Source of the DNA: Dictyostelium discoideum
Taxonomy: Eukaryota
Assembly: GCA_000004695.1 (NCBI GenBank)
Contig: CM000155.2
Span: 3,392,001 to 3,456,000, forward strand
Direction: 5' to 3'
DNA: 64,000 nucleotides
Part shown: positions 36,499 through 64,000 of the stretch, piece by piece
Layout of the letters: the number at the start of each line of letters is the position of its first letter
Numbering within the stretch: position 1 is the stretch's first letter
Position numbers and translations under genes: made by a program
The notes under the pieces: model-generated
Databases searched by the model: none
What the model was told of the DNA's origin: nothing
Seen by the model: only the letters and a program-made list of their open reading frames with translations

Positions 36499-36535
<37 letters not shown>

Positions 36536-36721: not shown

Positions 36722-36820
<99 letters not shown>

Positions 36821-40680: not shown

Positions 40681-41163
40681 ATGAAAGTCCATTGCCAATT
40701 ACCAACAAATAATAATAATAATAATGAAACAATAGATTTTGAAGTAGATCAAGATAATACTTTATTAGTAGATTTAAAACAAATGATATATAATAAAACT
40801 GGTACTCCAGTAAATAGACAATCTGTAAATATTTAAAATTTTTGGTATGTCAATAATTTTATTATATTTTTACAAACTAACCCAAACCTTTTTTAATATT
40901 TTAGATTGAATTGGAAAATAAAAAGTTACCACATAGATACGATAAAAAGTCAATATCAAAACTCCACATTAATGAATCATCAAATATAAGAGTTGTTTAT
41001 GTTTTGGAAGGTGGCTGTTGCGGTGTTGGTTGTGATATTTGTGTATGTATTTTCTTTTTTTAATAAACCCTTAAAATATATATTATTAACATATTTTTTA
41101 AAAATATTTGAAAAAAAAAAAAAATAGGGTTGTGGTGGAAGTTGTAGATGTTCAATTCAATAA
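40681..41163 (+). CDS. Ubiquitin-fold protein with Gly-Gly followed by Cys-rich tail and CaaX box (MUB/UBL3-like), copy 1, 3 exons
   Basis: Exons 40681..40824, 40905..41042 and 41128..41163 (donors GTAAAT and GTATGT, acceptors TTTTAG and AATAG). The protein is MKVHCQLPTNNNNNNETIDFEVDQDNTLLVDLKQMIYNKTGTPVNRQS|IELENKKLPHRYDKKSISKLHINESSNIRVVYVLEGGCCGVGCDIC|GCGGSCRCSIQ*. It aligns to ubiquitin ([32 protein letters not shown].../...LHLVLRLRGG). Confidence 0.65.
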
Positions 41164-45159: not shown

Positions 45160-45538
45160 TTGAATCCAAAATGTTGGTCAACTTCATCGAATAATCCATC
45201 ATCAATTTTAGAAAATTTAACATGATATAATTTATTTGGTGAATCAATTTGTTTTAATGTTTTATTAACAGAATTAGTATCAAAATTAAAATGGAAACCA
45301 ACTCCACCTGTTGAATTTTTAAAGAAATTAAAATCATTCACAAATGAACCAGCTTGTAATAGATTATATGTTGTTTATAAAATTTCAAAAAATAATATTT
45401 ATATACCTGGTAATCATAAATTAAACCCAACTTCAAAACAATTATTACAATCAAATAATACTTATGAAGGTTGGAAAATTACACAAGAAATGATTTTAAC
45501 TCATTTTTCTTTTACTTTTAAAAAAATTTTAAATTAAT
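45160..45538 (+). pseudogene. 3'-terminal remnant of a type I PKS gene (last ~125 codons) with a nonsense mutation
   Basis: [123 protein letters not shown] is collinear with the C-termini of both full PKS genes. TGC (Cys) has become TGA. Homology to the PKS genes starts abruptly at ~45160. Confidence 0.75.
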
Positions 45539-46258
45539 AAATTAAATATACACAATAACAATATAATTATTAAAAGAGTGAAAAATATTATAAAATAAAA
45601 TAAAATAAAATAAAATAAAATAAAATAAAAGAGGTAACCTTCGATATTTTCTGGAGTATGGAAAAAGTTTTGTAGTGATTCTGATTGGGTATTAAGTTTT
45701 TTATTTTTTTTATTTTTTTATTTTTTTTACGCAACTTTTTGTTTTTTAATCAACAAACCCTATCATTAGTCCCGCTACAATTTTTTTATTTTTAGATATT
45801 TTTTAAAAAGAAAACGAAAATCGAAAAAATCTCATTTTGATTTTTTTTATTTTTTTATTTTTTTCTTTTATTTTTTTTATATGTAAAAAGACCGGTTTTT
45901 TTAGAAAGTTTTGACCAGTGTTTGCAAAAAATCAAAAAGTATCATTATTTTTTTTTTTTTGTGTGTAATTGATTGGATAAAATCTTTTGTTTTTCTTGAA
46001 AAAGAAAAACTTTTTTTTTGGGTAAAGTGAACTTTTTTTTTTTTTTCAAAAATATTGCAAATTTTTGCTTATTTCTTTCATTTAACAAATAAAATTTTTC
46101 AATTTCTAAACTAACTAAAATCTTTTATTATCAAACATAGTTTTTTTATTAAAATAATTTTTTTATATGAAAATAATTTTTTTAATTGAGCATTATTATT
46201 CCAATATACTTGAAGTTATTGTTTTTTTTTATTTTATTTTATATTTTTTAATAATAAA

Positions 46259-46468
46259 ATGGAAAATCAAAATATTAAATATGGCGATAATGATGTTGCA
46301 ATTATTGGTATTGGTTTAAGATTACCAAATTCAATTAATAAGCCATTGGAATTATGGGAGGGTTTATTAGCTGGTTTTGACGGAATTGGTAATTATTATT
46401 TTTATTATTTTTTTTTATTTTCTTTTTTTTTTTTTAATTTTATTTTCATTTTTTTTTTCACCTTTCGC

Positions 46469-46503
<35 letters not shown>

Positions 46504-46671
46504 CCAATTTCAAAAAAAAACCACAGCAATGTATAAAATTAATACTCTAAATTACAATATGTTTTTATCATAGTTGAAACAACAAATAGATGGAGCGATT
46601 CATTTTCAGCAATGGATGAGATTTCAAGTAAATATGCAGGTTTAATTGTATGTATATTAACATAAAAATAA

Positions 46672-46702
<31 letters not shown>

Positions 46703-46774
46703 AATAAAATTACAAATAATAATAATAATAATAATAAAATTACAAATAATAATAATAATAATAATAAAATTACA

Positions 46775-46838
<64 letters not shown>

Positions 46839-47624
46839 TTACAAATAATAATAATAATATTAATAGTTAATCTATTTTTAGGATTTAGATGAATGGATGT
46901 CATTTGATCCTTTATTTTTTGGTATTATTCCAACAGAGGTACCATCAATTGATCCTCAACAAAGATTACTTTTGAAATGTACATGGGAAGGTGAGTATTA
47001 ATAATCGATATCATTAGTAGTTAATTTAGAATAATAAATCAAATATTTTACTAATTCTATTTACAAATATATTTAATCATTGATACAGCATTTGAAGATG
47101 CAAATATTGATCCATTTAAACTCAGAGGTACCAATACATCTGTATATGTAGGTGCAAGTTCATTAGATTATGCATCTATAAATGTTGACTTTGATGAAAC
47201 ACCAATGAACATTTTCAATTCAAATATGTCAGGTATTTCAAATAGAATATCATATTGTTATGACTTTAGAGGTACAAGGTAATTATTAGTAACATATTTT
47301 AAAAGTTTTTTTTTTTTTTTTAAAAGTTCAATAAACTAATAAGTATTATAATTATCTATGTTAAAAATAAAACTTTATTATAGTTTAACAATTGATACAG
47401 CATGTTCAAGTTCATTAAATGCAGTTCATCTTGGTTATAAATCAATTATAAATGGAGAATCAGATTATTCAATTGTTGGAGGTTGTAATTTCATTATGAG
47501 TCCACATACATCAAGATCATTTGAATCAATTAATGTAACAAGTAAAACTGGTAAAAGTAAAGCATTCGATCAAGATGCAAATGGATTTGTTCGTTCAGAA
47601 GTATGTAATAAATTATATTTACAT

Positions 47625-47681
<57 letters not shown>

Positions 47682-48026
47682 TTAATAACTAATTTTTAAA
47701 TATTAATAATAATTTATAAATAATAATTAAAAGGGAGTTGTATCAATCATTTTAAAGAAAATGTCAAAAGCAATTCAAGATGGTGATCAAATTTATTCAG
47801 TTATCAAAGGTACAAACAGTAATGTAGATGGTAATTTAAACAAAGGTAATTTCTTTGCACCATCAAAACAATCACAAGCAAATAATATTAAAAGTGCAAT
47901 GGAATCTTGTAATAAAGAAACTACCAATAGTACACCAATCGCTTTAAATGATATTGATTTCTTTGAATTACACGGTACAAGTACTCAAATTGGTGGTATG
48001 TAATCAACAACACTATTAAACTTTTT

Positions 48027-48073
<47 letters not shown>

Positions 48074-51000
48074 TTATATTGATTTTAAATTTTTAAAATA
48101 ATTATAGATCCAATCGAATGTGAAGGTGTATCAAGTGTATTTAAAGAATCAAGAGAAAAACCATTATTAATTGGATCAATTAAAGCAAACATTGGTCATT
48201 TAGAACCAGCAAGTGGTGTTGCAAGTTTAGCAAAAGTAGCATTAATGTTTAAACATCGTCAATTTGTAAAAAACATTAATTTCGATAAACCAAATCCAAA
48301 TATCAAATTTGATGAATGGAAAATTAAAGTCTGTACAGAGAATACACCATTCCCAAATAATAAGAAAGTATCAATTGCAATCAATTCCTTTGGTATTACA
48401 GGTAGCAATGCATGTTTAATTTTAACTGAATATATTAAACCAAAAACTACAACAACCACAACAGCTAACAATAATGGAAATCAAAAGTATTTAATACCAA
48501 TTTCAGCAAATTCAAAATCATCATTAGAATCATATAAAGAAAAATTAATTAATTCAAGTAAAGAATTTTCAGAAACTATTAATTTTAAAGATTTTGTTAA
48601 ATATCAATTAGATTCAAAAACTTTAAAATTAACTCAAAGATCAGTTATTATTGCAAGTAATTGGGAAGAAGCTGGAAGCACTCAATCAATTGTAACAACT
48701 AATACAAATAGATCAGGAAATATTATTAAAGATGCCAATAAGAATCCACAATTAGTATTCGTTTTTAGCGGTCAAGGTCCACAATGGTCAAAAATGTTCA
48801 CTCAACTTTATGATCAAGAACCAATTTTCAAACAAAAAACTGATCAAATTGATTCATTATTATCAAAACATTATGGTTATTCAATTTTAAATAAATTAAA
48901 TTCAATTAAAGATGATGATACAGTTACAATTAATGAACCAATTTTAGCACAACCATCAGTATTTATGATTCAAATGGCTTTGATTGAATTATATAAACAT
49001 TGGGGTATTTTAGCATCAATTTCAATAGGTCATTCACTTGGTGAAGTTTCAAGTGCAGTTTGTTCAGGTATGATTGATTTAGAAACTGGATGTTTTATCA
49101 TATATCATCGTTCAAGATTACAACAACAAACAGTTGGTAGTGGTAGAATGTTAGTAGCTTCATTAAATGAACAACAATTTAATCAAGAATTTCAACAAAA
49201 ATATCCATCAATTGAAATCTCTTGTTTTAATTCACCATTCTCAATCGTATTAGCAGGTAAAGAATCAGAATTACAAGAAATTTCAAATATCTTAAAAGAG
49301 AAAGAAACATTTTCAATATTTTTAAGTACACAATCATCATTCCATTCATCGTCACAAGAACCTATTAAAGATGAATTATTAAAACAATTAAAAGATATTA
49401 AATCAACCAAATCAAATATTCCAAATTTTTCAACTGTAACTTCCAATTTATTTAATGATAATGATGATGATGAAGTTGTTCAACAACCTGATGAAGCAAG
49501 TTCTCACAACAGCACAACAACTTTATTTGATTCAAATTATGTTTATGAAAATGTTAGAAAACCAGTACAATTCGAAAAAGCAATTAAAAATGTATTCAAT
49601 TACATTGAAAAAAAAGGTTTAGGTAGTTCAGTAATATTTTTAGAAATTTCAGCATCACCAGTATTAGGAAATTATATTAGAGAAATGATACCACAAGATT
49701 CAAACTATTTCTTTATTGAAGATCAAACTATATCAGTATTATCATCATTAAATAAAAAGAATAAAGATCAAGTATTAGAAATTCAAACAAGTATATCACA
49801 ATTATATTGTAAAGGTTATAATGTCAATTTTAATTGTTCAAATCAAACAAAATCATTGGACTTTAAAAACACCGGATATAAACAATTATCAGATGTTTTA
49901 TTCAAGTATTCATGGGATGATGAATCATATTGGTCTGTATCTCCATTAATTTCAAATTATATTAAAAATGGACCAGCAACTAATCATTTAGGTTATCGTA
50001 ATGAAAGACAACCATATCAATCATTCACATCATCGATTGATATTAAAAAAGAACCATTTGAATTTTTAAAAGGTCACTCAAGTAGAAATAGAGTAATTTA
50101 TCCAGGTTGTGGTTATATTGATAGTATATTAAAAGCATTCCCAGATCAAGATTTAACAATTCAATCAATGGAATATAAATCTGCAATTTTATTATCATCA
50201 TCAATGAAAACTTATTTATCAACAAATATCATACCAAGTGGTAAAAATGAATATCGTGTTTCATTCCATTACAAAGACAAAAAAACAAATAAATGGATTC
50301 TCTCATGTAGTGGTAGACTTTCAACTACAAAACACAATGATGAAGTCGTTAAAAAAGTTGACATTGAAAAATTAAAATCAAAATGTAATTTTGTAACCAT
50401 TCAAAAGAAAGAACTTTATGAAACAATTAAATATAAAGCACAATTAACATTAGAAGGTAAATTCCAAAGTATTGAAGAAGTTAGCTATGGTCATAATTGT
50501 TGTTTATCAAAAGTACCATTAACAACATTATCATCATATGATAATGAATCATTTTTAAATTTATGTGTAATTGATGCTGCTTTTCAACCACTTGGTGCTG
50601 TAAAAGAAAATCAAGAACCAATGGTATTTGCAAGTATTGAAAATTTAAAATTCTTTTCAAAAAATATACCAAAATCAGCAGAAGACAGAGAAAAATATAA
50701 ATTTGTTTATACATATACACAAGTAAAAGAAAAGAAATGTGGATCTTATTTCGTTTCAATTTTAACAATGCTTCAAGATGGTACAATACTATTCTTTTCA
50801 CCATTGGTAGTTTACACTCAATTAACACCATACAAAAATCAATACATAATTGAAAGTCCAAATGATAATTTATATAAAATTTGTTATCAATCAAAAGATT
50901 CAACATTACCACATCCATTATTATTAAAAGATAAATTTGATCAACCAAGATTTGAAACAACTGATAAACAATCTCAAGTAATAAAAAAAGCATTATCAAA

Positions 51001-54000
51001 TTGTTTATTTGCAATCTTTAAGAGAAATAATAATTTATTTACAAAAGTAGAAGTTAAATCACAATCAATTGATTATTTAATTGAAAAGTATTGTTTAATC
51101 ATTGATAATGATGATGATAATGATGGTATCGATGATAATAGTATATTGGTTAATGGTGGTGTAGCATCAATTGATGATATGGTATTAGCAAGTACAACAG
51201 GAAAAGAAACAACAATTGTAAATAATGGTAAAAGATCATTAGCAAAATTAATTTTCCAAATTTTAAAATCAAATGTTGATTTAATCGATTGGAATAATAT
51301 TGCAACATATACAAAAAATATTTCAAAACAACAATTAAATATTATTCAAGCAATTGGTAATTTAATTGTTACACCATTATCAGTAACAAATCAAGTAACA
51401 GAATCAGATTTAATTTCAAAAACTCAATTAGATATTATTAATAATAGAATGAAAATTAAACAATATGAATTAATTTCAAATACAATCGCAACAGATTTAA
51501 TTAAACCAATTATAAATAATAGTATTTTATTCAGAATTTTAGAAATTAATTCAGGATTTGGATATTTATCAGAAATGATAATTAATAAAATTAATCAATT
51601 ATTAATAGAATTTGAAAGTAGTTATGAAATTGAAATTGAATTTACATTCACATTAAATGGTACAAATCAAGATGATAATAAAGAAATTTCAAATTCAATT
51701 AAAGAAAAGTTGACAAATTTATTAATTTCAAAATCATCAATATCAATCATTTTTAAAGAATTAAATTTAAATGAATCATTTTTAGAACAAAAATTTAATC
51801 CATCTTATTATGATTTAATAGTTTTAACAAATTTATCAACAATTACAAATTTAAATGAATCAATTGAATTTATAAATTCAATTTTATATCCAAATGGTCA
51901 TTTAATTATAATTGATACAAAAAATCAATCAAACTTCCAAGATTATGAAATTTTTGAACAATTTTTAATTTTTGATAACTTTGGAGGTGGTATTGTAGAT
52001 GATAATATTGATTGGGTTAAAATATTTCAAGATAATAATATAAATAGGGTTGTTGCAACACCAAATATTAAACCACATGTAATTCAAGTTCAAAAATCAA
52101 AATTATATGAGAAAGTAATGGGTACACTTGATGATATTACAGGGCCATATGATCAAATCATTATAATTGGTTATCAGTTACAAGGTACAGATGAAGATAA
52201 TTTCCAAAGCCCGATTATGGATATTAATAAACAAGGTACAGATATTTATAGAATTAAAACTATTGAAGAATTTGAAAAACATTGTTCGACAATACCACCA
52301 ACAGATAAATCAATTTTATTCTTTATTTCAGCAATGAATAATTTATCATTAGAAAATTATAAACAAGTTAATTTTGATTATATTAAAATCAATCAATATT
52401 TATTAGCAAATAAATTAGGATCTCTATTTATTTTAGCAACTAAAAGTGCATTAAAAGAATCAACCAATGCATTAGCAGCATCATTAATTGGTAGTTTTAG
52501 ATATTTTTCAGAGTTTTCAAATATTTTAAATTTATATTCATTCGATTTTGGTGAGGATGTATATACCCTTTCAAAAGAAATATCATTAAAATGGTTAAAT
52601 ATGGCAATTGATTTACTAGATCCAAATAAACATATTCAAAGAGAATATATTTTTAGAAATGGTAATGAAACTTGGTTTGAAAGAATTGGTAAAATTAAAA
52701 GAGTTAAATCAAAATATCAATCAAAATCATATTTAGATGATAAAGAAGATTCATTAGTCGCAAGATTAGATCAAAATTTAGAATATCAATTAGAGGCAAA
52801 ACAAAGCAATTTAAAAGAAAATGAAATTGAAGTTCAAGTTGTAGCAACAGGTATTAATTTTAAAGATAGTTTAATTTTTAGAAATCTTGTACCACCAGTT
52901 TTAGCAAATCATGAAGGTGATTTTAGTAAACCTGAATTTGGATTCGAATGTTCTGGTATCGTTTCAAGAATTGGTAGTAAAGTTAAAAAGTTTAAAGTTG
53001 GTGATTCAGTTTTAGGTATAAGTTGGAAATCAACATCATCTCATGCCATCAATTATCAAGATGCATTTGTTTTAAAACCAGATAACATTAGTTTTGTAGA
53101 AGCAGCTTCAATACCAATAGTATATTGTACTTCATTCTATTCATTATTTTATTCTGGTAATTTAAGTATTAAAAATAATGAATCAGTATTAATTCATCAA
53201 GCAAGTGGTGGTATTGGTTTAGCATGTTTAAATATTTTAAAATCATGTGGATTTAAATCAAAATTATATGTAACAGTTGGTTCAAAAGAAAAAGAAGATT
53301 ATCTAAGAGAAACCTATGGTGATTTTATAACTGGAATTTATTCATCAAGAAATACAGATTTCCTTGAAAATATTAAAACTGATCTTTCAAATAAAAATGA
53401 CAACAACAACAATAACAACAACAACAACAATGACAACAAAGAAAGTAACATCAAAGAACTTCTTGATAATGATGATGATGAAATTTTACCATTTATTCAT
53501 AAAAAAGGTGTTGATTTAATTATAAATACATTACCATTTGAATTTTTAGATACAAATTTCCTTTTACTTGGTCAAGGTGGTAGAATTGTAGATTTATCAG
53601 TTACTCATTTAAATAATAATGATACAACTGATTTTAGTAAATTCAAATGGTTCATTGGTTATAGTACAGTTGAAATATTTTATAATGGATTTGAAAAATC
53701 AAAACATATATTACAATTAATAACAGATATGATTAAAAATAAAGAATTACCATTAATACCAATTAAAGAGTATCCAATTAATCAAATTAAAGATGCAATC
53801 GACTTTATTGGTCAAAGAAAACATATTGGTAAAATTGTTATAAATCATAAATTAGGTTTAAGAGATGGTTGTTCAAATTTAGTACAAGATACAATTAAAA
53901 GTTTACAAAATCATTTAAAGGATAATTATTTAGTAGCTTCTCCAGATTTTAAATTCATGGGTGATAGTTTAGGTAAAACTATTTTATTAACAGGTCAAAC

Positions 54001-56362
54001 TGGTTTATCATTATCAATCGCTCAAGCTTGCTTATTAAATAATTATCAAGATTTAGAAGGTATAATTGTAATTTCAAAATCACCAATTAAACATGAATTA
54101 CAATATCTCATTTCATTAGCTAAATACCTTTCACGTAAAACTAGAGTTCATTTTAAACAAGCAGATTGTTCTAAATTTGATGAAATGAGAAAGGTAATAT
54201 CAGAAATTTATGAAAAAGATGATCCAAAATTATCACCAGTAGAATCAATATTTCATAATGCATTCGTACCAGTTATGTCAGAACCACAAGATATTGATAT
54301 GAAACATATTGATGATGCATATGATGCTAAAACAACTGGTGCAATGAATTTGTATATGTTAATGAGTATGTATGACTGGAAATTGAAAAACTTTTTTTTT
54401 AGTTCTTCCATTACTTCAGTTTCAGGTAGTTCACGTCAAGCAGGTTATTGTGGTGCAAATCTTGTATTAGAATCAATGGCTAAAGTTATTCAATCTCAAG
54501 GTATAAGATGTTCAACAATTTGTTGGGGTATTATTGGTGATACTGGTTATGTTTCACGTAATGAATCGGTTGCTAAATTTTTAAACGGTCTAGGTAATGC
54601 CCCAATGCCTTTGAATATGGTTTTAGGTTCATTAGATTTATTATTACAACAACCAACCCTATCAACAGATACTACAATCATTGCATCATTTGATTTTAAT
54701 AATTTACCAAAACTATCAAGAGATGGAAGTAATAATATTAGTTATAAATTTGATTACTTTACAAATCCAATTCAATCAAATCAAAATAATTGTTCAAGTG
54801 ATGATCTTTCAATTAGAGAACAAATTCTTGCAAAATTTTCAGAGTTTTTATCAGTCGATGATCAATCTAAAATTAATTTAGATATAAAATTATTAGATTA
54901 TGGTGCAGATTCAATGGTAATTGTAGAGTTAAAGAATTATTTAGATAAAACATATACACCAAATATTTTATCTATACAACAACTTCAAAATATTACAATT
55001 AATCAATTAATTCAATCAGTAACAGATGCAATGAATAAATTAAATGGTAATGAAAATAAATCAATTAAAAAATCAAATAAATTAGTACAACAAAAACAAA
55101 TCGATTGGGTAAAAGAAATTAAATTAGATTCATCTATAAAACCAACTGATGAAATGATTAAATTATTTAAACAACTACAACAACAAGCATCAACAACAAC
55201 AAGTAATACAGTATTTTTAACAGGTTCAAGTGGTTTTATTGGAATTTATATTCTATTTTATTTAATTAAATCAGTTAATTGTAAAATTGTATATTGTTTA
55301 ATTAGAAGAAAAACAATTGAAGAAGCAACAACATTTTTAATTGAATTTTTAAAAGTTCATCAATTATATAATCAATTAACAACAGATGAAATTAATAAAA
55401 TCAAACCAGTATTAGGTGATTATACATTAGATTCATTTGGACTTTCAGTTGATCAATATACAAATATTTCAAATAATGTAGATTTAATTATAAATAGTGC
55501 TGCAAGTGTAAACTATCAAATGGGTTATGAAGATTCAAAAGTTGAAAGTGTAGAAGGTGTACTTCAATGTTTAAGATTTTCATGTCATAATAAATTAAAG
55601 AAATTATTTCAAGTTAGCACTCTTGGCATTTATTCAGATGATAAAAGAGATAATTTAGATGATTATACATTCGCTCAAATTGATCCAAAAATTATTCAAT
55701 CTAAAAATTCAATTATCAATGGTTATTTACAAGGTAAAATCGTATCAGAATATCATATTAAAGAAGCTGCAAATAGAGGTATACCTTGTTGTATCATTAG
55801 ATTACCTTTTATTGGTCCAAATCCAAATACTGGTGTTGGTAGAGATTTAGATTTATTTCAAACATTATTTCAATCATGTTATGCAATGTCAACATATCCA
55901 AAACAAGAATCAGGTCTTCAATTTTATGCAACACCAGTTACTTGGGCAGCTCAAAACTTATCATTCATTTCATTGAATCCAAAATGTTGGTCAACTTCAT
56001 CAAATCATCCATCATCAATTTCAGAAAATTTAACATGCTACAGTTTATTTGGTGAATCAATTTGTTTTAATGTTTTATTAACAGAATTAGCAACACAATT
56101 AAAATGGAAACCAACTTCATCTGGTGAATTTTTAAAGAAATTGAGATCATTCCCAAATGAACCATCTTGTAAAAAACTTCATATTGTCTTAAAAAATACA
56201 AAAAATTTATTACTCAATGTTTATATACCTGGTAATTATAAATTAAATCCAACTTTAAAACAATTACTACAATCAAATAATACTTATGAAGGTTGGAAAA
56301 TTACACCAGAAATGATTTTAACTCATTTATCTTTTATCTTTAAAAAAAAATTAAATAAATAA
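46259..56362 (+). CDS. Type I iterative polyketide synthase (KS-AT-DH-cMT-ER-KR-ACP-thioester reductase), 7 exons, ~3080 aa
   Basis: Exons 46259..46388, 46574..46647, 46882..46990, 47089..47278, 47384..47600, 47734..47995 and 48108..56362. All junctions are GT/AG and phase-consistent. Motifs: KS DTACSSS / HGTSTQIGD / [10 protein letters not shown]; AT GHSLGE; c[12 protein letters not shown]; [14 protein letters not shown]; [13 protein letters not shown]; [11 protein letters not shown]; [12 protein letters not shown] and YLQGK. Confidence 0.9.
46670..46860. repeat. Minisatellite inside PKS intron 2: (aat)n-aaaattacaaat units
   Basis: About 5 tandem ~27-33-bp units, visible directly. Confidence 0.8.
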
Positions 56363-56552
56363 AAGTGAATATCAATAAATAAATAAAATTTTTTTTTTTT
56401 TTTTCTCATAAATCGGTCATTTTTTATTTTTTATATTACTCATTGGCAATTTTTAAATCAAAAAAAAAAAAAAAGAAATATTATAAAGGATCAGTGGGTT
56501 AATTAAAAAGTTGAGATTGAAATTTTTATTTTTATTTTTTTCTTCAAAACCT

Positions 56553-56635
56553 TGCAAGAGGCGAGATTCGAACTCGCGAACCGAATGGATGAGATCTTAA
56601 GTCACACGGATTTAACCAGACTTTCCTACCCTTGC
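56553..56635 (-). tRNA. tRNA-Leu (anticodon TAA), copy 2 (identical to copy 1)
   Basis: Same 83-nt sequence as 39954..40036. Confidence 0.8.
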
Positions 56636-57222
56636 TTTGGATGGTTTTAAAAAATTTTAGAGGTATATGTTCAATTTTAATATAATAATCTTAAAGATTT
56701 ATTGGATTTTTTTTTAAAATCGTTTAGTTAAGAAAATATATTTAATTTTATAAACAATTTTTGAAAATTAGTTCTTTAAATAATTTTTTTTTATTGTTCA
56801 TTTCTGTTCAAAGAAAAAAATATTATTATTTTTTTGAGAGTTTCATTTTTATTATAATTAATTTTTTTTTATTTTTGTTTTTTTTTTTTTATTTTTTTAT
56901 TTTTTTTTTTTTTATTTTAAATTTTGACAAAAATGGTATAAGGGAGAGATGGTGCCGATTAAACTTTGGTTTTTTTTTTATTTTTTTAATTTCATTGAAA
57001 ATTCTAAATTTATATGAAAAAAACAATTCTCTAAATCATTGTTTTGAGACCTTTTGTAAATAATTATTTTTTAATCTTTTAAATTAATTTATTTTTTTTC
57101 AACACTGTTTAAAAAAATATAAAAAGAAGTTTTTTTTTTTAAAAAAAATTTAATCAATTAAAAAGAAATAATAATATTTTTAAAAAACATAGTAATAAAT
57201 AAATTTTAAAATTTGATAAAAG

Positions 57223-57707
57223 ATGAAAGTCCATTGCCAATTACTAACAAATAATAATAATAATAATGAAACAATAGATTTTGAAGTAGATCAAGATAAT
57301 ACTTTATTAGTAGATTTAAAACAAATGATATATAATAAAACTGGTACTCCAGTAAATAGACAAGCTGTAAATATTTAAAAGTTTTGGTATGTCAATAATT
57401 TTATTTTATTTTTACTAACTAACACAAACCTTTTTTAATATTTTAGATTGAATTGGAAAATAAAAAGTTACCACATAGATACGATAAAAAGTCAATATCA
57501 AAACTCCACATTAATGAATCATCAAATATAAGAGTTGTTTATGTTTTGGAAGGTGGCTGTTGCGGTGTTGGTTGTGATATTTGTGTATGTATTTTCTTTT
57601 TTTAATAAACCCTTAAAAATATATTATTAACATATTTTTTAAAAAATATTTGAAAAATAAAAAAAAAATAGGGTTGTGGTGGAAGTTGTAGATGTTCAAT
57701 TCAATAA
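57223..57707 (+). CDS. Ubiquitin-fold / Cys-rich / CaaX protein, copy 2, 3 exons
   Basis: Same exon structure as copy 1 (exon 3 57672..57707 GCGGSCRCSIQ*). Two amino-acid differences (L8, A48). Intact ORF. Confidence 0.65.
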
Positions 57708-57718
57708 ATTTCATAATG

Positions 57719-57738
57719 AGATGTGAGATCTCACATCT
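57719..57738. repeat. 20-bp perfect palindrome agatgtgagatctcacatct at the distal edge of duplication copy 2
   Basis: Exact self-complementarity. The left half overlaps the last shared bases (gagat) of the duplicated unit. Confidence 0.8.
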
Positions 57739-57814
57739 TTTTTAATTTGTAAAAAGAAAACAAAATAAATAAAAATCTTTAAAGAATTTTTTTTTTAAAA
57801 AAAAAAAAAAAAGT

Positions 57815-60800
57815 TTATTTGTAATTTATAAATTTAATTTTTTTAAAGGTAAAAGATAAATGAGTTAAAATCATTTCTGGTGTAATTTTCCAACCTTTAT
57901 AAGTGTTATTTGATTGTAATAATTGTTTTAAAGTTGGATTTAATTTATAATTACCAGGTATATAAATATTGAGTAATAAATTTTTTGAATTTTTCAAAAC
58001 AACATGAAGTTTATTACAAGATGGTTCATTTGGGAATGATTTTAATTTCTTTAAAAATTCACCGGGTGGAGTTGGTTTCCATTTTAATTGTGATGCTAAT
58101 TCTGTTAATAAAACATTAAAACAAATTGATTCACCAAATAAATTATAACATGTTAAATTTTCTGAAATTGATGATGGATTATTTGATGAAGTTGACCAAC
58201 ATTTTGGATTCATTGAAATGAATGATAAGTTTTGAGCTACCCAAGTAACTGGTGTTGAATATAATTGAAGACCTGATTCTTGTTTTGGATATGTTGACAT
58301 TGCATAACATGATTGTAATAATGTTTGGAAAAAATCTGAATCATTACCAACACCAGTACTTGGATTTGGACCAATAAAAGGTAATCTAATGATACAACAT
58401 GGTATACCTCTATTTGCAGCTTCTTTAATATGATATTCTGATACGATTTTACCTTGTAAATAACCATTGATAATTGAATTTTTAGATTGAATAATTTTTG
58501 GATCAATTTGAGCGAATGTATAATCATCTAAATTATCTCTTTTATCATCTGAATAAACACCAAGAGTGCTAACTTGAACAAATTTCTTTAATTTATTATG
58601 ACATGAAAATCTTAAACATTGAAGTACACCTTCTACACTTTCAACTTTTGAATCTTCATAATCCATTAGAAAACTTACACTTGCAGCACTATTTATAATT
58701 AAATCTACATTATTTGAAAGATTTGTATACTGATCAACTGAAAGTCCAAATGAATCTAATGTATAATCACCTAATACTGGTTTGATTTTATTAATTTCAT
58801 CTGTTGTTAATTGATTATATAATTGATGAACTTTTAAAAATTCAATTAAAAATGTTGTTGCTTCTTCAATTGTTTTTCTTCTAATTAAACAATATACAAT
58901 TTTACAATTAACTGATTTAATTAAATAAAATAGAATATAAATTCCAATAAAACCACTTGAACCTGTTAAAAATACTGTATTACTAGTTGTTGTAGTTGGT
59001 GATGCTAGTTGTTGTTGTAATTGTTTAAATAATTTAATCATTTCATCAGTTGGTTTTATAGATGAATCTAATTTAATTTCTTTTACCCAATCGATTTGTT
59101 TTTGTTGTACTAATTTATTTGATTTTTTAATTGATTTATTTTCATTACCATTTAATTTATTCATTGCATCTGTTACTGATTGAATTAATTGATTAATTGT
59201 AACATTTTGAAGTTGTTGTATAGATAAAATATTTGGTGTATATGTTTTATCTAAATAATTCTTTAACTCTACAATTACCATTGAATCTGCACCATAATCT
59301 AATAATTTTATATCTAAATTAATTTTAGATTGATCATCAACTGATAAAAACTCTGAAAATTTTGCAAGAATTTCTTCTCTAATTGAAAGATCATCACTTG
59401 AACAATTATTTTGATTTGATTGAATTGGATTTGTAAAGTAATCAAATTTATAATAAAGATTATTACTTCCATTTGTTGATAGTTTTGGTAAATTATTAAA
59501 ATCAAATGATGCAACGATTGTAGTATCTGTTGATAGGGTTGGTTGTTGTAATAATAAATCTAATGAACCTAAAACCATATTTGAAGGCATTGAAATATTA
59601 CCTAGACCATGTACATATTTTGAAACTGATTCATTACGTGAAACATAACCAATATCACCAATAGAACCCCAACAAATTGTTGAACATCTTATACCTTGAG
59701 ATTGAATAGTTTTAGCTATTGATTCTAATACAAGATTTGCACCACAATAACCTGCTTGACGCGAACTACCTGAAACTGAAGCAACTGAAGAACTAAAAAA
59801 AAAGTTTTTTAATTTCCAACCATTTAAAATCGCTAGCAAATATAGATTCATTGCACCAGTTGTTTTAGCATCATATGCATCATCAATATGTTTCATACCA
59901 ATATCTTGTGGTTCTGACATAACTGGTACGAATGCATTATGAAATATTGATTCTACTGGTGATAAATTAGGATCATCTTTTTCATAAATTTCTGATATTG
60001 CTTTGCTTATTTCATCAAATTTAGAACAATCTGCTTGTTTAAAATGAACTCTAGTTTTACGTGAAAGGTATTTAGCAAATGAAATGAGATATTGTAATTC
60101 ATTTCTAATTGGTGATTTTGAAATTACAATTATACCTTCTAAATCTTGATAATTATTTAATAAACTGATTTGAATGATTGATAATGATAAACCAGTTTGA
60201 CCTGTTAATAAAATAGTTTTACCTAAACTATCACCCATGAATTTAAAATCTGGAGAAGCTACTAAATAATTATCCTTTAAATGATTTTGTAAACTTTTAA
60301 TTGTATCTTGTACTAAATTTGAACAACCATCTCTTAAACCTACTTTATGATTTATAACAATTTTACCAATATGTTTTCTTTGACCGATAAATTCAATTGC
60401 ATCTTTAATTTGATTAATTGGATACTCTTTAATTGGTATTAATGGTAATTCTTTATTTTTAATCATATCTATTATTAATTGTAATATATGTTTTGATTTT
60501 TCAAATCCATTATAAAATATTTCAACTGTACTATAACCAATAAACCATTTGAATTTACTAAAATCAGTTGTATCATTATTATTTAAATGATTAACTGATA
60601 AATCTACAATTCTACCACCTTGACCAAGTAAAAGGAAATTTGTATCTAAAAATTCAAATGGTAATGTATTTATAATTAAATCAACACCTTTTTTATGAAT
60701 AAATGGTAAAATTTGATCAACATCATCAAAACTTTCATTAATGGTGTTATTTTCTTTGATTTCGTTGTTGTTGTTATTTATTTTTGAAAGATCAGTTTTA

Positions 60801-63800
60801 ATATTTTCAAGGAAATCTGTATTTCTTGATGAATAAATTCCAGTTATAAAATCACCATAGGTTTCTCTTAGATAATCTTCTTTTTCTTTTGAACCAACTG
60901 TTACATATAATTTTGATTTAAATCCACATGATTTTAAAATATTTAAACATGCTAAACCAATACCACCACTTGCTTGATGAATTAATACTGATTCATTATT
61001 TTCAATTTTTAAATTACCAGAATAAAATAATGAATAGAATGAAGTACAATATACTAATGGTATTGAAGCTGCTTCTACAAAACTAATATTATCTGGTTTT
61101 AAAACAAATGCATCTTGATAATTGATGGCATGAGATGATGTTGATTTCCAACTTATACCTAAAACTGAATCACCAACTTTAAATTTTGTAACTTTGCTAC
61201 CAATTCTTGAAACGATACCAGAACATTCAATTCCAAATTCAGGTTTACTATAATCACCATCATGATTTGCCAAAACTGGTGGTACAAGATTTCTAAAAAT
61301 TAAACTATCTTTAAAATTAATACCAGTTGCCACAACTTGAACTTCAATTTCATTTTCTTTTAAATTGCTTTGTTTTGCCTCTAATTGATACTCTAAATTT
61401 TGATTTAATCTTGCGACTAATGAATCTTCTTTATCATCTAAATATGATTTTGATTGATATTTTGATTTAACTCTTTTAATTTTACCAATTCTTTCAAACC
61501 AAGTTTCATTACCATTTCTAAAAATATATTCTCTTTGAATATGTTTATTTGGATCTAGTAAATCAATTGCCATATTCATCCATTTAAATGGTGATCCACT
61601 AGCAATGGTAAATACCATTTCACCAAAATCGAATGAATATAAATTTAAAATATTTGAAAACTCTGAAAAGTATCTAAAACTACCAATTAATGATGCTGCT
61701 AATGCATTGGTTGATTCTTTTAATGCACTTCTAGTTGCTAAAATAAATGGACATCTTAATTTATTTGCTAATAAATATTGATTGATTTTAATATAATCAA
61801 AATTAACTTGTTTATAATCACCCAATGATAAATTATTCATTGCTGAAATAAAAAATAAAATTGATTTATCTGTTGGTGGTATTGTTAAACAATGTTTTTC
61901 AAATTCTTCAATAGTTTTAATTCTATAAATATCTGTACCTTGTTTATTAATATCCATAATTGGATTTTGGAAAAGATCTTCATTTGTATCTTGCATTTGA
62001 TCACCAATTATAATAATTTGATCATATGGTCCTGTTATATCATCAAGTGTACTCATTACCTTATCATATAATTTTGATTTTTGAACTTGAATTACATGTG
62101 GTTGAATATTTGGTGTTACAATAGCATTATTTAAATTATTATTTTGAAATATTTGATTCCAATCAATATTATCATCTACAATACCACCTCCAAAGTTATC
62201 AAAAATTAAAAATTGTTCAAAAATTTCATAATCTTGAAAGTTTGATTGATTTTTTGTATCAATTATAATTAAATGACCATTTGGATATAAAATTGAATTT
62301 ATAAATTCAATTGATTCATTTAAATTTGTAATTGTTGATAAATTTGTTAAAACTATTAAATCATAATAAGATGGATTAAATTTTTGTTCTAAAAATGATT
62401 CATTTAAATTTAATTCTTTAAAAATGATTGATATTGATGATTTTGAAATTAATAAATTTGTTAACTTTTCTTTAATTGAATTTGAAATTTCTTTATTATC
62501 ATCTTGATTTGTACCATTTAATGTGAATGTAAATTCAATTTCAATTTCATAACTATTTTCAAATTCTATTAATAATTGATTAATTTTATTAATTATCATT
62601 TCTGATAAATATCCAAATCCTGAATTAATTTCTAAAATTCTGAATAAAATACTATTATTTATAATTGGTTTAATTAAATCTGTTGCGATTGTATTTGAAA
62701 TTAATTCATATTGTTTAATTTTCATTCTATTATTAATAATATCTAATTGAGTTTTTGAAATTAAATCTGATTCTGTTACTTGATTTGTTACTGATAATGG
62801 TGTAACAATTAAATTATCAATTGCTTGAATAATATTTAATTGTTGTTTTGAACTTGTATTTGTAAATGTTGCAATATTATCCCAATCGATTAAATCAACA
62901 TTTGATTTTAAAATTTGGAAAATTAATTTGGCTAATACTCTTTTACCATTATTTAAAATTGTTGTTTCTTTTCCTGCTGTACTTGCTAATACCATATCAT
63001 CGATTGATGCTACACCACCATTAACTAATATACTATTATCATCGATACCATCATTATCATCATCATTATCAATGATTAAACAATACTTTTCAATTAAATA
63101 ATCAATTGATTGTGATTTAATTTCTTCTTTTGTAAATAAATTATTATTTCTCTTAAAGATTGCGAATAAACAATTTGATAATGCTTTTCTAATTATTTGT
63201 GATTGCTCATCAGTTGTTTCAAAATTTAATTGATCAAATTTATCTTTTAATATTAATGGTGATGGTAATGTTGAATCTTTTGATTGATAACAAATTTTAT
63301 ATAAATTATCATTTGGACTTTCAATTATGTATTGATTTTTATATGGTGTTAATTGAGTGTAAACTACCAATGGCGAAAAGAATAGTATTGTACCATCTTG
63401 AAGCATTGTTAAAATTGAAACGAAATAAGATCCACATTTCTTTTCTTTTATTTGTGTATATGTATAAACAAATTTATGTTTTTCTCTATCTTCTGCTGAT
63501 TTTGGTATATTTTTTGAAAAGAATTTTAAATTTTCAATACTTGAAAATAACATTGGCTCTTTATTCTCTTTTACAGCACAGAATGGTTGAAAAGCAGAAT
63601 CAATTACACATAAATTTAAAAATGATTGATTATCATATGATGATAATGTTGTTAATGGTACTTTTGCTAAACAACAATTATGACCATAGCTAACTTCTTC
63701 AATACTTTGGAATTTACCTTCAAATGTAAATTGTGCTTTATATTTAATTGTTTCATAAAGTTCTTTCTTTTGAATGGTTACAAAATTAGTTTTTGCTTTT

Positions 63801-64000
63801 AATTTTTCAATATCAAATTTTCTAACGACTTCATCATTGTGTTTTGTAATTGAAAATTTACCACTACATGAGAGTGACCATTTATTTGTTTTTTTATCCT
63901 TATAATGGAATGAAACACGATATTCATTTTTACCACTTGGTGTGATATTTGTTGATAAATAAGTTTTCATTGATGGTAATAATAAAACTGCAGATTTAAA
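57815..64000 (-). CDS. Type I PKS, near-identical paralogue of the 46259..56362 gene, convergent orientation; 5' part lies beyond the window
   Basis: The reading frame is open from the window edge (…[41 protein letters not shown]…) to a stop at 57815. Same domain order (DH-cMT-ER-KR-ACP-R) and long identical stretches to the plus-strand PKS. Confidence 0.9.
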   Translation of the reverse strand, partial: FKSAVLLLPSMKTYLSTNITPSGKNEYRVSFHYKDKKTNKWSLSCSGKFSITKHNDEVVRKFDIEKLKAKTNFVTIQKKELYETIKYKAQFTFEGKFQSIEEVSYGHNCCLAKVPLTTLSSYDNQSFLNLCVIDSAFQPFCAVKENKEPMLFSSIENLKFFSKNIPKSAEDREKHKFVYTYTQIKEKKCGSYFVSILTMLQDGTILFFSPLVVYTQLTPYKNQYIIESPNDNLYKICYQSKDSTLPSPLILKDKFDQLNFETTDEQSQIIRKALSNCLFAIFKRNNNLFTKEEIKSQSIDYLIEKYCLIIDNDDDNDGIDDNSILVNGGVASIDDMVLASTAGKETTILNNGKRVLAKLIFQILKSNVDLIDWDNIATFTNTSSKQQLNIIQAIDNLIVTPLSVTNQVTESDLISKTQLDIINNRMKIKQYELISNTIATDLIKPIINNSILFRILEINSGFGYLSEMIINKINQLLIEFENSYEIEIEFTFTLNGTNQDDNKEISNSIKEKLTNLLISKSSISIIFKELNLNESFLEQKFNPSYYDLIVLTNLSTITNLNESIEFINSILYPNGHLIIIDTKNQSNFQDYEIFEQFLIFDNFGGGIVDDNIDWNQIFQNNNLNNAIVTPNIQPHVIQVQKSKLYDKVMSTLDDITGPYDQIIIIGDQMQDTNEDLFQNPIMDINKQGTDIYRIKTIEEFEKHCLTIPPTDKSILFFISAMNNLSLGDYKQVNFDYIKINQYLLANKLRCPFILATRSALKESTNALAASLIGSFRYFSEFSNILNLYSFDFGEMVFTIASGSPFKWMNMAIDLLDPNKHIQREYIFRNGNETWFERIGKIKRVKSKYQSKSYLDDKEDSLVARLNQNLEYQLEAKQSNLKENEIEVQVVATGINFKDSLIFRNLVPPVLANHDGDYSKPEFGIECSGIVSRIGSKVTKFKVGDSVLGISWKSTSSHAINYQDAFVLKPDNISFVEAASIPLVYCTSFYSLFYSGNLKIENNESVLIHQASGGIGLACLNILKSCGFKSKLYVTVGSKEKEDYLRETYGDFITGIYSSRNTDFLENIKTDLSKINNNNNEIKENNTINESFDDVDQILPFIHKKGVDLIINTLPFEFLDTNFLLLGQGGRIVDLSVNHLNNNDTTDFSKFKWFIGYSTVEIFYNGFEKSKHILQLIIDMIKNKELPLIPIKEYPINQIKDAIEFIGQRKHIGKIVINHKVGLRDGCSNLVQDTIKSLQNHLKDNYLVASPDFKFMGDSLGKTILLTGQTGLSLSIIQISLLNNYQDLEGIIVISKSPIRNELQYLISFAKYLSRKTRVHFKQADCSKFDEISKAISEIYEKDDPNLSPVESIFHNAFVPVMSEPQDIGMKHIDDAYDAKTTGAMNLYLLAILNGWKLKNFFFSSSVASVSGSSRQAGYCGANLVLESIAKTIQSQGIRCSTICWGSIGDIGYVSRNESVSKYVHGLGNISMPSNMVLGSLDLLLQQPTLSTDTTIVASFDFNNLPKLSTNGSNNLYYKFDYFTNPIQSNQNNCSSDDLSIREEILAKFSEFLSVDDQSKINLDIKLLDYGADSMVIVELKNYLDKTYTPNILSIQQLQNVTINQLIQSVTDAMNKLNGNENKSIKKSNKLVQQKQIDWVKEIKLDSSIKPTDEMIKLFKQLQQQLASPTTTTSNTVFLTGSSGFIGIYILFYLIKSVNCKIVYCLIRRKTIEEATTFLIEFLKVHQLYNQLTTDEINKIKPVLGDYTLDSFGLSVDQYTNLSNNVDLIINSAASVSFLMDYEDSKVESVEGVLQCLRFSCHNKLKKFVQVSTLGVYSDDKRDNLDDYTFAQIDPKIIQSKNSIINGYLQGKIVSEYHIKEAANRGIPCCIIRLPFIGPNPSTGVGNDSDFFQTLLQSCYAMSTYPKQESGLQLYSTPVTWVAQNLSFISMNPKCWSTSSNNPSSISENLTCYNLFGESICFNVLLTELASQLKWKPTPPGEFLKKLKSFPNEPSCNKLHVVLKNSKNLLLNIYIPGNYKLNPTLKQLLQSNNTYKGWKITPEMILTHLSFTFKKIKFINYK

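What the first reader, a model, noticed from the sequence alone, without database searches (positions are those of the whole stretch)
46259..64000. Convergent inverted duplication of two ~3000-aa type I PKS genes with mosaic identity
The plus-strand PKS (46259..56362) and the minus-strand PKS (57815..>64000) are identical over long stretches, including whole antisense ORFs such as [42 protein letters not shown] at 55659 and 58237. They diverge sharply in short patches. One is [18 protein letters not shown] versus GEMVFTIASGSPFKWMNM. Another is [15 protein letters not shown] versus LRCPFILATRSALKE. A third is a poly-N insert [31 protein letters not shown] in the ER-KR linker of one copy only. 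This patchwork points to a young inverted duplication that is being homogenised by gene conversion. Such an arrangement can form hairpins and drive rearrangement.
Basis: seen in the sequence. Interest (0 to 1): 0.7.

Follow-up and report, generated by a model that had tools for sequence, protein, structure and literature searches.

The report
Dictyostelium pks44/pks45 convergent gene pair
The two tail-to-tail polyketide synthase genes are the already annotated pks44 and pks45 of Dictyostelium discoideum, an old gene pair (part of a larger family) kept about 95% alike by repeated patchy copying between copies, which is a textbook process and not a new kind of element.

Summary
Window 46259-56362 (+) is D. 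discoideum AX4 pks44 (7 exons, 3078 aa). Window 57815->64000 (-) is pks45. They are convergent. The 1.45-kb spacer holds a tRNA-Leu(UAA) and a small ubiquitin-like gene. The arms are 95.1% identical over 6.2 kb, and the identity is significantly patchy, at synonymous sites too. A second assembly is 100% identical over 16 kb, so this is not an assembly artefact.

The arrangement is not young. The same convergent pair around the same tRNA/ubiquitin-like spacer exists in D. citrinum, where the spacer is 30% diverged. Paralogues within a species (~95%) are more alike than any between-species pair (~90%). That is concerted evolution. Against D. cf. discoideum, 123 sites support orthology, 70 support within-genome conversion and 3 support reciprocal exchange, and the sites are strongly clustered. 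The "divergent patches" are old paralogue-specific sequence types shared across strains. One wild strain carries a 3.7-kb substitution-free tract between its convergent copies.

The pair belongs to a 3-5 copy family. A relic lies at 45145-45544. A 100-N gap at 39588-39687 sits where the second assembly places two more paralogues. Hairpin-driven instability is not supported.

The parts
46259..56362 (+). pks44 (DDB_G0293902, UniProt Q54B51). 7 exons: 46259-46388, 46574-46647, 46882-46990, 47089-47278, 47384-47600, 47734-47995, 48108-56362. 3078 aa. Domain order KS-AT-(about 1000 aa with no Pfam match)-ER-KR-ACP-reductase.
   Evidence: The exon model reproduces P0121 exactly. Pfam domains. Closest solved structure is D. 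discoideum Pks16, 9NJU.
57815..64000 (-). pks45 (DDB_G0293912, UniProt Q54B49), 3' 6.2 kb. The gene runs off the window. The full protein is 3097 aa.
   Evidence: The translation of 57815-64000 (-) is an exact substring of P0125 and P0003. The full gene is seen in L001.
50176..56363 (+). Left arm of the inverted repeat visible in the window. It pairs with 63998-57825.
   Evidence: 95.1% identity over 6199 nt.
56363..57814 (.). 1.45-kb unique spacer between the two stop codons.
   Evidence: Homology between the arms ends at the stop codons. The spacer is colinear with the D. citrinum spacer at 69.9% over 1183 nt.
56553..56635 (-). tRNA-Leu(UAA) in the spacer.
   Evidence: ARAGORN. The same tRNA is in the spacer of L001-L004.
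57223..57707 (+). Small ubiquitin-like gene (105 aa) in the spacer, on the same strand as pks44.
   Evidence: Called gene L001 20072-20556, mapped to window coordinates. Weak PF00240 hit. Present in the same relative orientation in L002, L003 and L004.
51358..51936 (+). Example of a recent conversion tract: perfect runs of 260 and 224 nt (51358-51617 and 51713-51936). It lies in a region with no Pfam domain (aa 1411-1604). Other perfect tracts: 49581-49851, 53172-53391, 54993-55174, 55202-55455.
   Evidence: In this stretch pks44 is closer to pks45 than pks45 is to its orthologues.
52017..52600 (+). Paralogue-specific island with 17-25 differences per 200 nt. It holds [20 protein letters not shown] and [36 protein letters not shown] (aa 1764-1826, before the ER domain).
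   Evidence: Blocks of orthology-supporting sites. Both sequence types are conserved across strains. Positions.
53390..53482 (+). Variable N-rich low-complexity insert inside the ER domain (pks44 aa 2089-2119). The length differs in every family member.
54187..54613 (+). Paralogue-specific island inside the KR domain (about aa 2355-2497), with 17-20 differences per 200 nt.
45145..45544 (+). Relic of a third, tandem PKS copy: the last ~133 codons with an in-frame stop, 88-91% nt identity to the living copies over its full length. It sits upstream of pks44, where D. citrinum, ACTFIR and ACTFIT have the 3' end of a whole PKS gene.
39954..41163 (.). Second copy of the tRNA-Leu(UAA) (39954-40036, -) plus ubiquitin-like gene module, 94.5% identical to the module in the spacer. 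This shows the duplicated unit was once larger than the gene.
39588..39687 (.). 100-N assembly gap. To the left of about 39797, a second assembly that is otherwise 99.8-100% identical has a non-LTR retrotransposon and two further paralogues (ACTFIT_003111 and ACTFIT_003114).

Best explanation
The finding is the annotated gene pair pks44/pks45 on D. discoideum chromosome 6. These are two intact, iterative type I (FAS-like) polyketide synthases with a C-terminal reductase domain. They are arranged tail-to-tail around a 1.45-kb spacer that carries a tRNA-Leu(UAA) and a small ubiquitin-like gene.

The pair is old. It was already present in the common ancestor of D. discoideum and D. citrinum. It belongs to a local family of 3-5 copies plus relics whose copy number differs between genomes.

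The 95% identity and its mosaic pattern come from repeated, short to medium, non-reciprocal gene conversion between the copies. Tracts run from tens of nt up to a few kb. Conversion occurs between the inverted partners and with the tandem copies. This is concerted evolution. The sharply divergent patches are the stretches that conversion has not recently overwritten in the AX4 lineage. They preserve ancient '44-type' and '45-type' sequence.

Shown here:
- the identity of the genes;
- the conserved arrangement;
- the clustered phylogenetic discordance;
- the over-dispersion at synonymous sites;
- the near-absence of reciprocal-exchange sites;
- independent perfect tracts in other genomes.

Inferred:
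- the molecular mechanism, taken to be homologous-recombination repair using the paralogue as template;
- that every genome keeps at least one copy of each type because the types differ in function.
For: Identity and arrangement:
- The window translations match AX4 pks44 and pks45 exactly.
- Domain set from Pfam. Closest solved structure is Pks16, 9NJU.
- The arrangement and sequence are reproduced at 100% over 16,186 nt in assembly GCA_054883475.1.
- A convergent pair with the tRNA-Leu and ubiquitin-like spacer is present in D. cf. discoideum and D. citrinum. The citrinum spacer is colinear at 69.9% identity.

DNA identity:
- pks44/pks45 95.6%.
- The three citrinum copies 94.6-95.8% among themselves.
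- All discoideum-citrinum pairs 89.3-91.3%.

Quartet sites, scored as within-genome / orthology / reciprocal:
- AX4 against D. citrinum: 431 / 15 / 9.
- AX4 against D. cf. discoideum: 70 / 123 / 3, with 51 runs against 94.8 +/- 6.4 expected, p<=2e-4.
- AX4 against the ACTFIR convergent pair: 96 / 47 / 7, with 23 runs against 74.5 expected.

Other evidence:
- Synonymous differences are over-dispersed, and pS correlates with pN (rho 0.46, p=5e-4).
- At 110 diagnostic sites pks44 carries blocks of 45-type sequence and pks45 carries a few 44-type sites, so conversion went both ways.
- ACTFIR_009295 and ACTFIR_009325 share a 3726-nt tract with no substitutions. The tract is 45-type and covers the AX4 'islands'.
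- D. citrinum copies b and c share a 665-nt perfect tract at a different place.
- In the islands pks44 and pks45 differ by 11.6%, against 2.9% elsewhere. Between species the figures are 10-17% and 8-10%.
- The patch peptides are type-specific across strains.
Against: - In D. citrinum the three copies still group together even within the island columns (100% bootstrap). Trans-species orthology of individual copies therefore rests on synteny and on a weak excess of shared states: 30 against 12 sites, which are not independent.
- The islands were chosen for high divergence, so the comparison is affected by ascertainment bias.
- The strict longest-run test on polymorphic sites was only marginal, P=0.037.
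- The 3.7-kb perfect tract in ACTFIR comes from one long-read assembly and could in principle be a polishing artefact.
- No conversion event has been observed directly.
- The products and expression of pks44 and pks45 are unknown. PMC12828403 states that the polyketides of most of the 40 DdPKSs have not been identified.
Confidence: 0.85

Rival explanations
1. A young inverted duplication specific to the AX4 lineage. The patchiness would reflect only uneven mutation or selection along the gene, with no conversion.
For: Overall identity is high at 95%. Homology stops at the gene borders. pN/pS of 0.53 shows uneven constraint.
Against: - The same convergent arrangement with a homologous spacer is present in D. 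citrinum and D. cf. discoideum.
- 123 sites group pks44 with its D. cf. discoideum orthologue, so the copies predate that split.
- Synonymous sites are also over-dispersed.
- A perfect tract (51358-51936) lies in a stretch with no recognised domain.
Confidence: 0.03
2. Independent duplications into the same convergent layout in D. discoideum and D. citrinum after speciation. Conversion would act only within the discoideum clade.
For: Quartet sites against D. citrinum are almost all within-species (431 against 15). The citrinum copies group together even in the islands.
Against: - Both species have the same order and orientation: PKS, then tRNA-Leu(-) and ubiquitin-like gene(+), then the inverted PKS. 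The spacer is colinear but 30% diverged.
- Both have a further tandem copy, or its relic, at the same upstream position.
- The 45-type patch peptide is shared with the citrinum gene at the pks45 position: GELVFTIASESPFKWLNM against GEMVFTIASGSPFKWMNM.
- Island divergence between pks44 and pks45 equals the between-species divergence.
Confidence: 0.08
3. The mosaic arises from reciprocal crossing-over between the inverted arms, which flips the spacer and swaps the 3' ends, and not from non-reciprocal conversion.
For: Inverted repeats can recombine to invert the intervening segment (established knowledge).
Against: - Only 3 of 196 informative sites and 7 of 150 show the swapped pattern that reciprocal exchange predicts.
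- The ubiquitin-like gene has the same orientation relative to the pks45-type gene in all four genomes.
Confidence: 0.03
4. An assembly artefact: a mis-joined or collapsed contig, or a chimeric consensus of reads from two copies.
For: The window carries a 100-N gap and scattered Ns, so this part of the reference is imperfect.
Against: - An independent assembly is 100% identical across 8.5 kb of pks44, the spacer and 6.2 kb of pks45.
- Three more genomes show the same arrangement.
Confidence: 0.01

Closest known systems
Dictyostelium discoideum type I iterative PKS family (pks1-pks45; Eichinger et al. 2005; Zucko et al. 2007, Bioinformatics 23:2543, recalled from memory and not held in the library)
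   Same: The two genes are pks44 and pks45 themselves. From memory, Zucko et al. described clusters of 2-5 very similar PKS genes whose promoters are much more divergent than the coding regions. That is what is seen here: homology starts about 17 nt upstream of the ATG and ends at the stop codon. Sucgang et al. 2011 (PMC3188802) describe lineage-specific expansion of PKS genes.
   Different: I found no paper that documents gene conversion or concerted evolution for Dictyostelium PKS genes (search).
Concerted evolution of inverted gene pairs by arm-to-arm gene conversion, for example the human Y-chromosome palindromes (own knowledge)
   Same: Inverted copies are separated by a unique spacer. 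Within-genome identity exceeds between-species identity despite conserved structure. Transfer is non-reciprocal and the tracts are patchy.
   Different: The arms here are only about 95% identical, against >99.9% in the Y palindromes. Old islands persist. Tandem copies of the same family also take part.
Natural recombination among modular PKS genes in Streptomyces (Jenke-Kodama et al. 2006, PMC1592344)
   Same: Homologous recombination or gene conversion reshuffles PKS sequence and is a proposed source of chemical diversity.
   Different: Those are bacterial modular assembly lines that exchange modules or domains. Here whole iterative synthase genes in a eukaryote exchange tracts of 50 nt to a few kb.
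D. discoideum Pks16 (PDB 9NJU; PMC12828403)
   Same: Closest solved structure. It matches pks44 aa 4-2085 with E=0 and has the same FAS-like architecture.
   Different: Pks16 makes fatty acids. pks44 and pks45 have an additional C-terminal NAD_binding_4 reductase domain, and their product is unknown.

Membership tests
Type I iterative (FAS-like) polyketide synthase, Dictyostelium clade | KS, AT, KR and ACP domains on one polypeptide, with optional ER, DH and MT | tested here: met
   Pfam on pks44: KS 11-480, AT 544-894, ER 1898-2239, KR 2286-2471, ACP 2554-2646, NAD_binding_4 reductase 2698-2943. All are above the curated cut-offs. No Pfam DH or MT hit in aa 900-1890.
Type I iterative (FAS-like) polyketide synthase, Dictyostelium clade | Catalytic motifs intact: KS Cys in DTACSSS, AT GHSxG, ACP Ser in GADS, reductase TGxxGxxG | tested here: met
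   Read directly in both proteins: [51 protein letters not shown]. Both reading frames are intact.
Type I iterative (FAS-like) polyketide synthase, Dictyostelium clade | Identity with annotated pks44 and pks45 | tested here: met
   Exact matches to Q54B51 and Q54B49.
Type I iterative (FAS-like) polyketide synthase, Dictyostelium clade | Demonstrated polyketide product | not testable with these tools
   PMC12828403 states that the products of most DdPKSs have not been identified.
Concerted evolution by gene conversion | Paralogues within a genome are more alike than orthologues between species, with conserved synteny | tested here: met
   95.6% (AX4) and 94.6-95.8% (D. citrinum) within genomes, against 89.3-91.3% between species. 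The spacer is conserved and contains the tRNA-Leu.
Concerted evolution by gene conversion | Phylogenetically discordant sites clustered in tracts | tested here: met
   Quartet runs tests: 51 runs against 94.8 expected, and 23 against 74.5, p<=3e-4.
Concerted evolution by gene conversion | Heterogeneity also at silent sites, so it is not only variable constraint | tested here: met
   Variance/mean ratio of synonymous differences 1.80, against a permutation mean of 0.95 and maximum of 1.92.
Concerted evolution by gene conversion | Non-reciprocal transfer | tested here: met
   Only 3 of 196 and 7 of 150 sites show the reciprocal pattern.
Concerted evolution by gene conversion | Significant maximal tract in a GENECONV-type permutation on polymorphic sites | tested here: inconclusive
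   The longest concordant run is 32 polymorphic sites, P=0.037.
Concerted evolution by gene conversion | Direct observation of a conversion event | not testable with these tools
   This needs mutation-accumulation lines or pedigrees.
Hairpin- or cruciform-prone palindrome (fragile inverted repeat) | Near-perfect arms with a short spacer (tens to about 100-200 nt; own knowledge of yeast and bacterial studies) | tested here: not met
   The spacer is 1451 nt, the arms are 95.1% identical and there are 21 indels.
Hairpin- or cruciform-prone palindrome (fragile inverted repeat) | Evidence of instability at the centre, such as inversions or deletions of the spacer | tested here: not met
   The spacer content and orientation are conserved in AX4, ACTFIR, ACTFIY and D. 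citrinum. It changes only by insertions, to 3.5 kb and about 18 kb.

The most novel reading that the evidence does not exclude
The locus may act as a natural cassette system for polyketide diversity. Three sequence types are seen: the 44-type, the 45-type and a third type. They are marked by islands before the ER domain and inside the KR domain. Both types seen there are kept in D. cf. discoideum ACTFIY, and all three are kept in each of the other discoideum-group genomes examined. Conversion shuffles the remaining sequence among 3-5 copies. This produces strain-specific chimeric synthases, such as ACTFIR_009295, and possibly strain-specific chemistry. Selection would preserve the islands in at least one copy per genome.
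Probability: 0.15. Interest if true: 0.55.

Novelty: already known. Interest (0 to 1): 0.27.

Why it matters
The finding has modest importance.

- It gives a clean, quantified example of concerted evolution in a eukaryotic secondary-metabolite gene family. It shows that high similarity between clustered Dictyostelium PKS genes should not be read as recent duplication.
- Trees of these genes built from KS/AT domains will show 'lineage-specific expansions' that are partly an effect of conversion.
- There is a practical point for users of the AX4 reference. The 100-N gap 6.6 kb upstream of pks44 coincides with the place where a second assembly, otherwise identical, carries a retrotransposon and two further paralogues. 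One of these is 97.9% identical to pks44. This matters for knock-outs, read mapping and expression estimates of pks44.
- The type-specific KR and pre-ER islands are candidate determinants of product differences, if the products are ever identified.

Tried and rejected
- **Bacterial-style ORF listing.** It splits pks44 at its introns. I replaced it with an exon model.
- **Strict longest-run permutation on polymorphic sites.** It was only marginal because single mismatches interrupt the tracts. I relied on dispersion, synonymous-site and quartet tests instead.
- **First bootstrap script.** It timed out. I rewrote it.
- **Exact-product look-ups for AX4 pks44, the O-methyltransferase ORF and the 1441-aa ORF.** They found nothing. 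I therefore could not place the window's left 39 kb in the second assembly or measure the size of the gap.
- **Colinearity test.** The 10 kb upstream of ACTFIT_003114 is not colinear with the window.
- **Zucko et al. 2007.** The paper is not held in the library. Its content is cited from memory only.
- **Literature searches.** No paper on gene conversion among Dictyostelium PKS genes turned up.
- **Hypothesis that selection protects the islands from conversion.** It is weakened because the ACTFIR convergent pair has overwritten them. The types do persist in at least one other copy per genome.
- **Structure prediction and RNA tools.** Not used, because they do not bear on the question.

Full report
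**1. What is there**

The window is about 20% G+C. It carries spliceosomal introns in the 5' part of the plus-strand gene. A protein search places it in Dictyostelium discoideum.

A seven-exon model reproduces the 3078-aa AX4 protein pks44 (DDB_G0293902, Q54B51) exactly. The exons are 46259-46388, 46574-46647, 46882-46990, 47089-47278, 47384-47600, 47734-47995 and 48108-56362. The minus-strand frame 57815-64000 is an exact part of AX4 pks45 (DDB_G0293912, Q54B49).

Pfam gives the domain order KS-AT-(about 1000 aa unassigned)-ER-KR-ACP-reductase. The closest solved structure is D. discoideum Pks16, 9NJU. Both genes are intact and their catalytic motifs can be read in the sequences.

The genes are convergent, tail to tail. 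The 1451-nt spacer holds a tRNA-Leu(UAA) at 56553-56635 (-) and a 105-aa ubiquitin-like gene at 57223-57707 (+).

**2. Checking the observation**

The arms align at 95.1% over 6199 nt, with 267 mismatches and 21 gap openings, up to the window end. In a locus that holds all of pks45, the homology continues through the introns to about 17 nt upstream of the ATG and stops at the stop codon.

Identity is patchy, from 62% to 100% per 100 nt. Mismatches are over-dispersed: the variance/mean ratio is 3.57 against a permutation maximum of 1.57. Synonymous differences are over-dispersed too, at 1.80 against a permutation mean of 0.95. pS and pN are correlated across the gene, with rho 0.46. Variable purifying selection alone therefore does not explain the pattern. 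The stricter longest-run test was marginal, P=0.037.

Three details need correction:
- The 'antisense ORF' is an out-of-frame ORF on the coding strand, and its second copy is at 58402-58527.
- The poly-N insert lies inside the ER domain.
- pks45 and all relatives have their own N-rich insert at the same position.

**3. Not an artefact**

Assembly GCA_054883475.1 is 100% identical to window 47815-64000, a stretch of 16,186 nt. Its locus-tag prefix is ACTFIT. It is probably the AX2 long-read genome of PMC12745789, but that is my inference.

**4. Not young**

The same layout exists in other genomes: a PKS gene, then tRNA-Leu and the ubiquitin-like gene, then an inverted PKS gene.
- In D. cf. discoideum ACTFIY the spacer is 3.5 kb.
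- In wild D. discoideum ACTFIR the spacer is about 18 kb after a retrotransposon insertion.
- In D. citrinum ACTFIU the spacer is 1.43 kb.

The citrinum spacer is colinear with the AX4 spacer but only 69.9% identical.

DNA identity is 95.6% for pks44/pks45 and 94.6-95.8% among the three citrinum copies. Every discoideum-citrinum pair is 89.3-91.3%. Conserved structure, combined with paralogues that are more alike than orthologues, is the signature of concerted evolution.

**5. Conversion tracts**

I scored quartet-informative sites between AX4 (pks44, pks45) and the ACTFIY pair.
- 123 sites group orthologues.
- 70 sites group the two genes of one genome.
- 3 sites show the swapped, reciprocal pattern.
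- The site classes come in blocks: 51 runs against 94.8 +/- 6.4 expected, p<=2e-4.

Against the ACTFIR convergent pair the counts are 96 within-genome, 47 orthology and 7 reciprocal, with 23 runs against 74.5 expected. Against D. citrinum they are 431, 15 and 9.

At 110 sites that distinguish the 44-type from the 45-type in other genomes, pks44 carries several short blocks of 45-type sequence and pks45 carries a few 44-type sites. Transfer has therefore gone both ways, in tracts of tens to hundreds of nt.

Other genomes carry their own tracts in other places.
- ACTFIR_009295 and ACTFIR_009325 share 3726 nt with no substitution. The tract is 45-type and covers aa 1308-2554.
- D. citrinum copies b and c share 665 perfect nt.

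**6. What the divergent patches are**

The quoted patch peptides are type-specific and conserved across strains.
- The pks44 form is found in ACTFIW_010935, ACTFIR_009294, ACTFIT_003111 and ACTFIY_011798.
- The pks45 form is found in ACTFIY_011796, ACTFIZ_000510, ACTFIR_009295, ACTFIR_009325 and ACTFIW_010957. A near-identical form occurs in the D. citrinum gene at the pks45 position.
- A third form marks ACTFIT_003114 and its relatives.

In the 1400 most divergent columns pks44 and pks45 differ by 11.6%. That is similar to the discoideum-citrinum distances in the same columns (10-17%). Elsewhere pks44 and pks45 differ by 2.9%, against 8-10% between species. The island columns were chosen for divergence, so this comparison is biased.

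The islands lie after the AT domain, before the ER domain (aa 1633-1826) and inside the KR domain (about aa 2355-2497). They are old sequence that conversion has not recently overwritten in AX4. They are not immune, because ACTFIR has overwritten them in one copy. All the discoideum-group genomes examined keep at least one 44-type and one 45-type copy, and all but ACTFIY also show a third-type copy.

**7. A family, not a pair**

- A relic of a third copy lies at 45145-45544. It is the last 133 codons with an in-frame stop, 88-91% identical to the living copies over its full length. It sits where D. citrinum, ACTFIR and ACTFIT have the 3' end of a complete tandem PKS gene.
- The tRNA-Leu plus ubiquitin-like module is duplicated at 39954-41163, at 94.5% identity.
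- The window has a 100-N gap at 39588-39687.
- Up to that point the ACTFIT assembly is 99.8-100% identical to the window. Beyond it, ACTFIT has a non-LTR retrotransposon, ACTFIT_003111 and ACTFIT_003114. ACTFIT_003111 is intact and 97.9% nt identical to pks44. ACTFIT_003114 is of the third type and is split into three ORFs.
- The AX4 proteins in the database include only pks44 and pks45 from this family.

The reference therefore probably lacks two paralogues at this gap. I could not establish the size of the gap.

**8. Hairpins and rearrangement**

The spacer is 1.45 kb and the arms are 95% identical with 21 indels. From my own knowledge of yeast and bacterial work, palindrome fragility needs near-perfect arms and spacers of tens to a few hundred nt. 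Empirically, the spacer's content and orientation are conserved in all four genomes examined, and swapped-pattern sites are rare. What does vary is the number of tandem copies and the transposon insertions next to the tRNA genes.

**9. Comparison with what is known, and verdict**

The genes are annotated. From memory, clusters of very similar PKS genes in D. discoideum were described by Zucko et al. 2007. Lineage-specific PKS expansion is discussed in PMC3188802. Arm-to-arm conversion in inverted gene pairs is a textbook process.

My searches found no paper that documents conversion among Dictyostelium PKS genes. The quantitative picture here is therefore an incremental addition, not a new kind of system.

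The finding is real. The 'young duplication' and 'hairpin' parts are not.

Noticed in passing
window 39588-39687 (also single Ns at 27135-27652): A 100-N assembly gap with low-quality sequence just after it. An otherwise 99.8-100% identical assembly (L005 and L007, GCA_054883475.1) has at this place a non-LTR retrotransposon (Exo_endo_phos plus RVT_1) and two more PKS paralogues. ACTFIT_003111 is 97.9% nt identical to pks44. ACTFIT_003114 is split into 3 ORFs. The 10 kb upstream of ACTFIT_003114 is not colinear with the window, so the size of the gap is unknown.
   Followed up: partly
window 45145-45544 (+): Relic of the 3' end of a PKS gene with an in-frame stop. It is positioned like the 3' end of the upstream tandem copy in D. 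citrinum (CIT_a), ACTFIR_009294 and ACTFIT_003114. Immediately to its left, 44410-45160 is 90% identical to the sequence downstream of ACTFIT_003111. The rearrangement history is not resolved.
   Followed up: partly
window 39954-41163 and 56553-57707: A duplicated module of tRNA-Leu(UAA) plus a ~105-aa ubiquitin-like gene, 94.5% identical. This indicates that an earlier segmental duplication unit was the PKS gene plus the tRNA and the ubiquitin-like gene.
   Followed up: partly
window 38565-39587: A tRNA-Tyr(GTA) at 38565-38647 is followed by a 205-aa open frame (38973-39587, no Pfam hit) that runs into the N gap. This is probably a tRNA-targeted retroelement fragment. It does not match the retrotransposon at the corresponding place in the second assembly.
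   Followed up: partly
window 34309-35418 (+): An O-methyltransferase gene (PF00891, E=1e-42) lies about 11 kb upstream of pks44. An alpha-mannosidase fragment lies at 36059-37093. The methyltransferase could be a tailoring enzyme for the PKS product, but no link was tested.
   Followed up: no
L006 10001-20102 and L002 10001-19925 (ACTFIR_009295 / ACTFIR_009325): In wild strain ACTFIR the convergent pair is 98.3% identical. It has a 3726-nt tract with no substitutions (two small indels) despite a spacer of about 18 kb that contains an LTR retrotransposon. The tract is 45-type, so the gene in the pks44 position has been largely overwritten.
   Followed up: partly
L004 1-9029 (D. citrinum ACTFIU_010063 plus the next gene): The third, tandem PKS copy in D. 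citrinum is annotated as two genes of 1448 and 1628 aa. It is probably a frameshifted pseudogene or carries a sequencing error.
   Followed up: no
window 53390-53482; protein P0001 against P0121: The newer annotation (ACTFIT_003083) of the same DNA removes 21 aa ([21 protein letters not shown]) next to the poly-N run as a predicted intron. AX4 pks44 keeps them. The true splice status is unknown. The N-rich insert differs in length in every family member.
   Followed up: no
window 46648-46881 and 47601-47733: Introns 2 and 5 of pks44 are largely (AAT)n/(ATA)n microsatellite with an embedded 30-nt repeat (ATAAAATTACAAATAATAATAATAATAATA). These produced most of the 'repeat families' in the repeat scan.
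   Followed up: no
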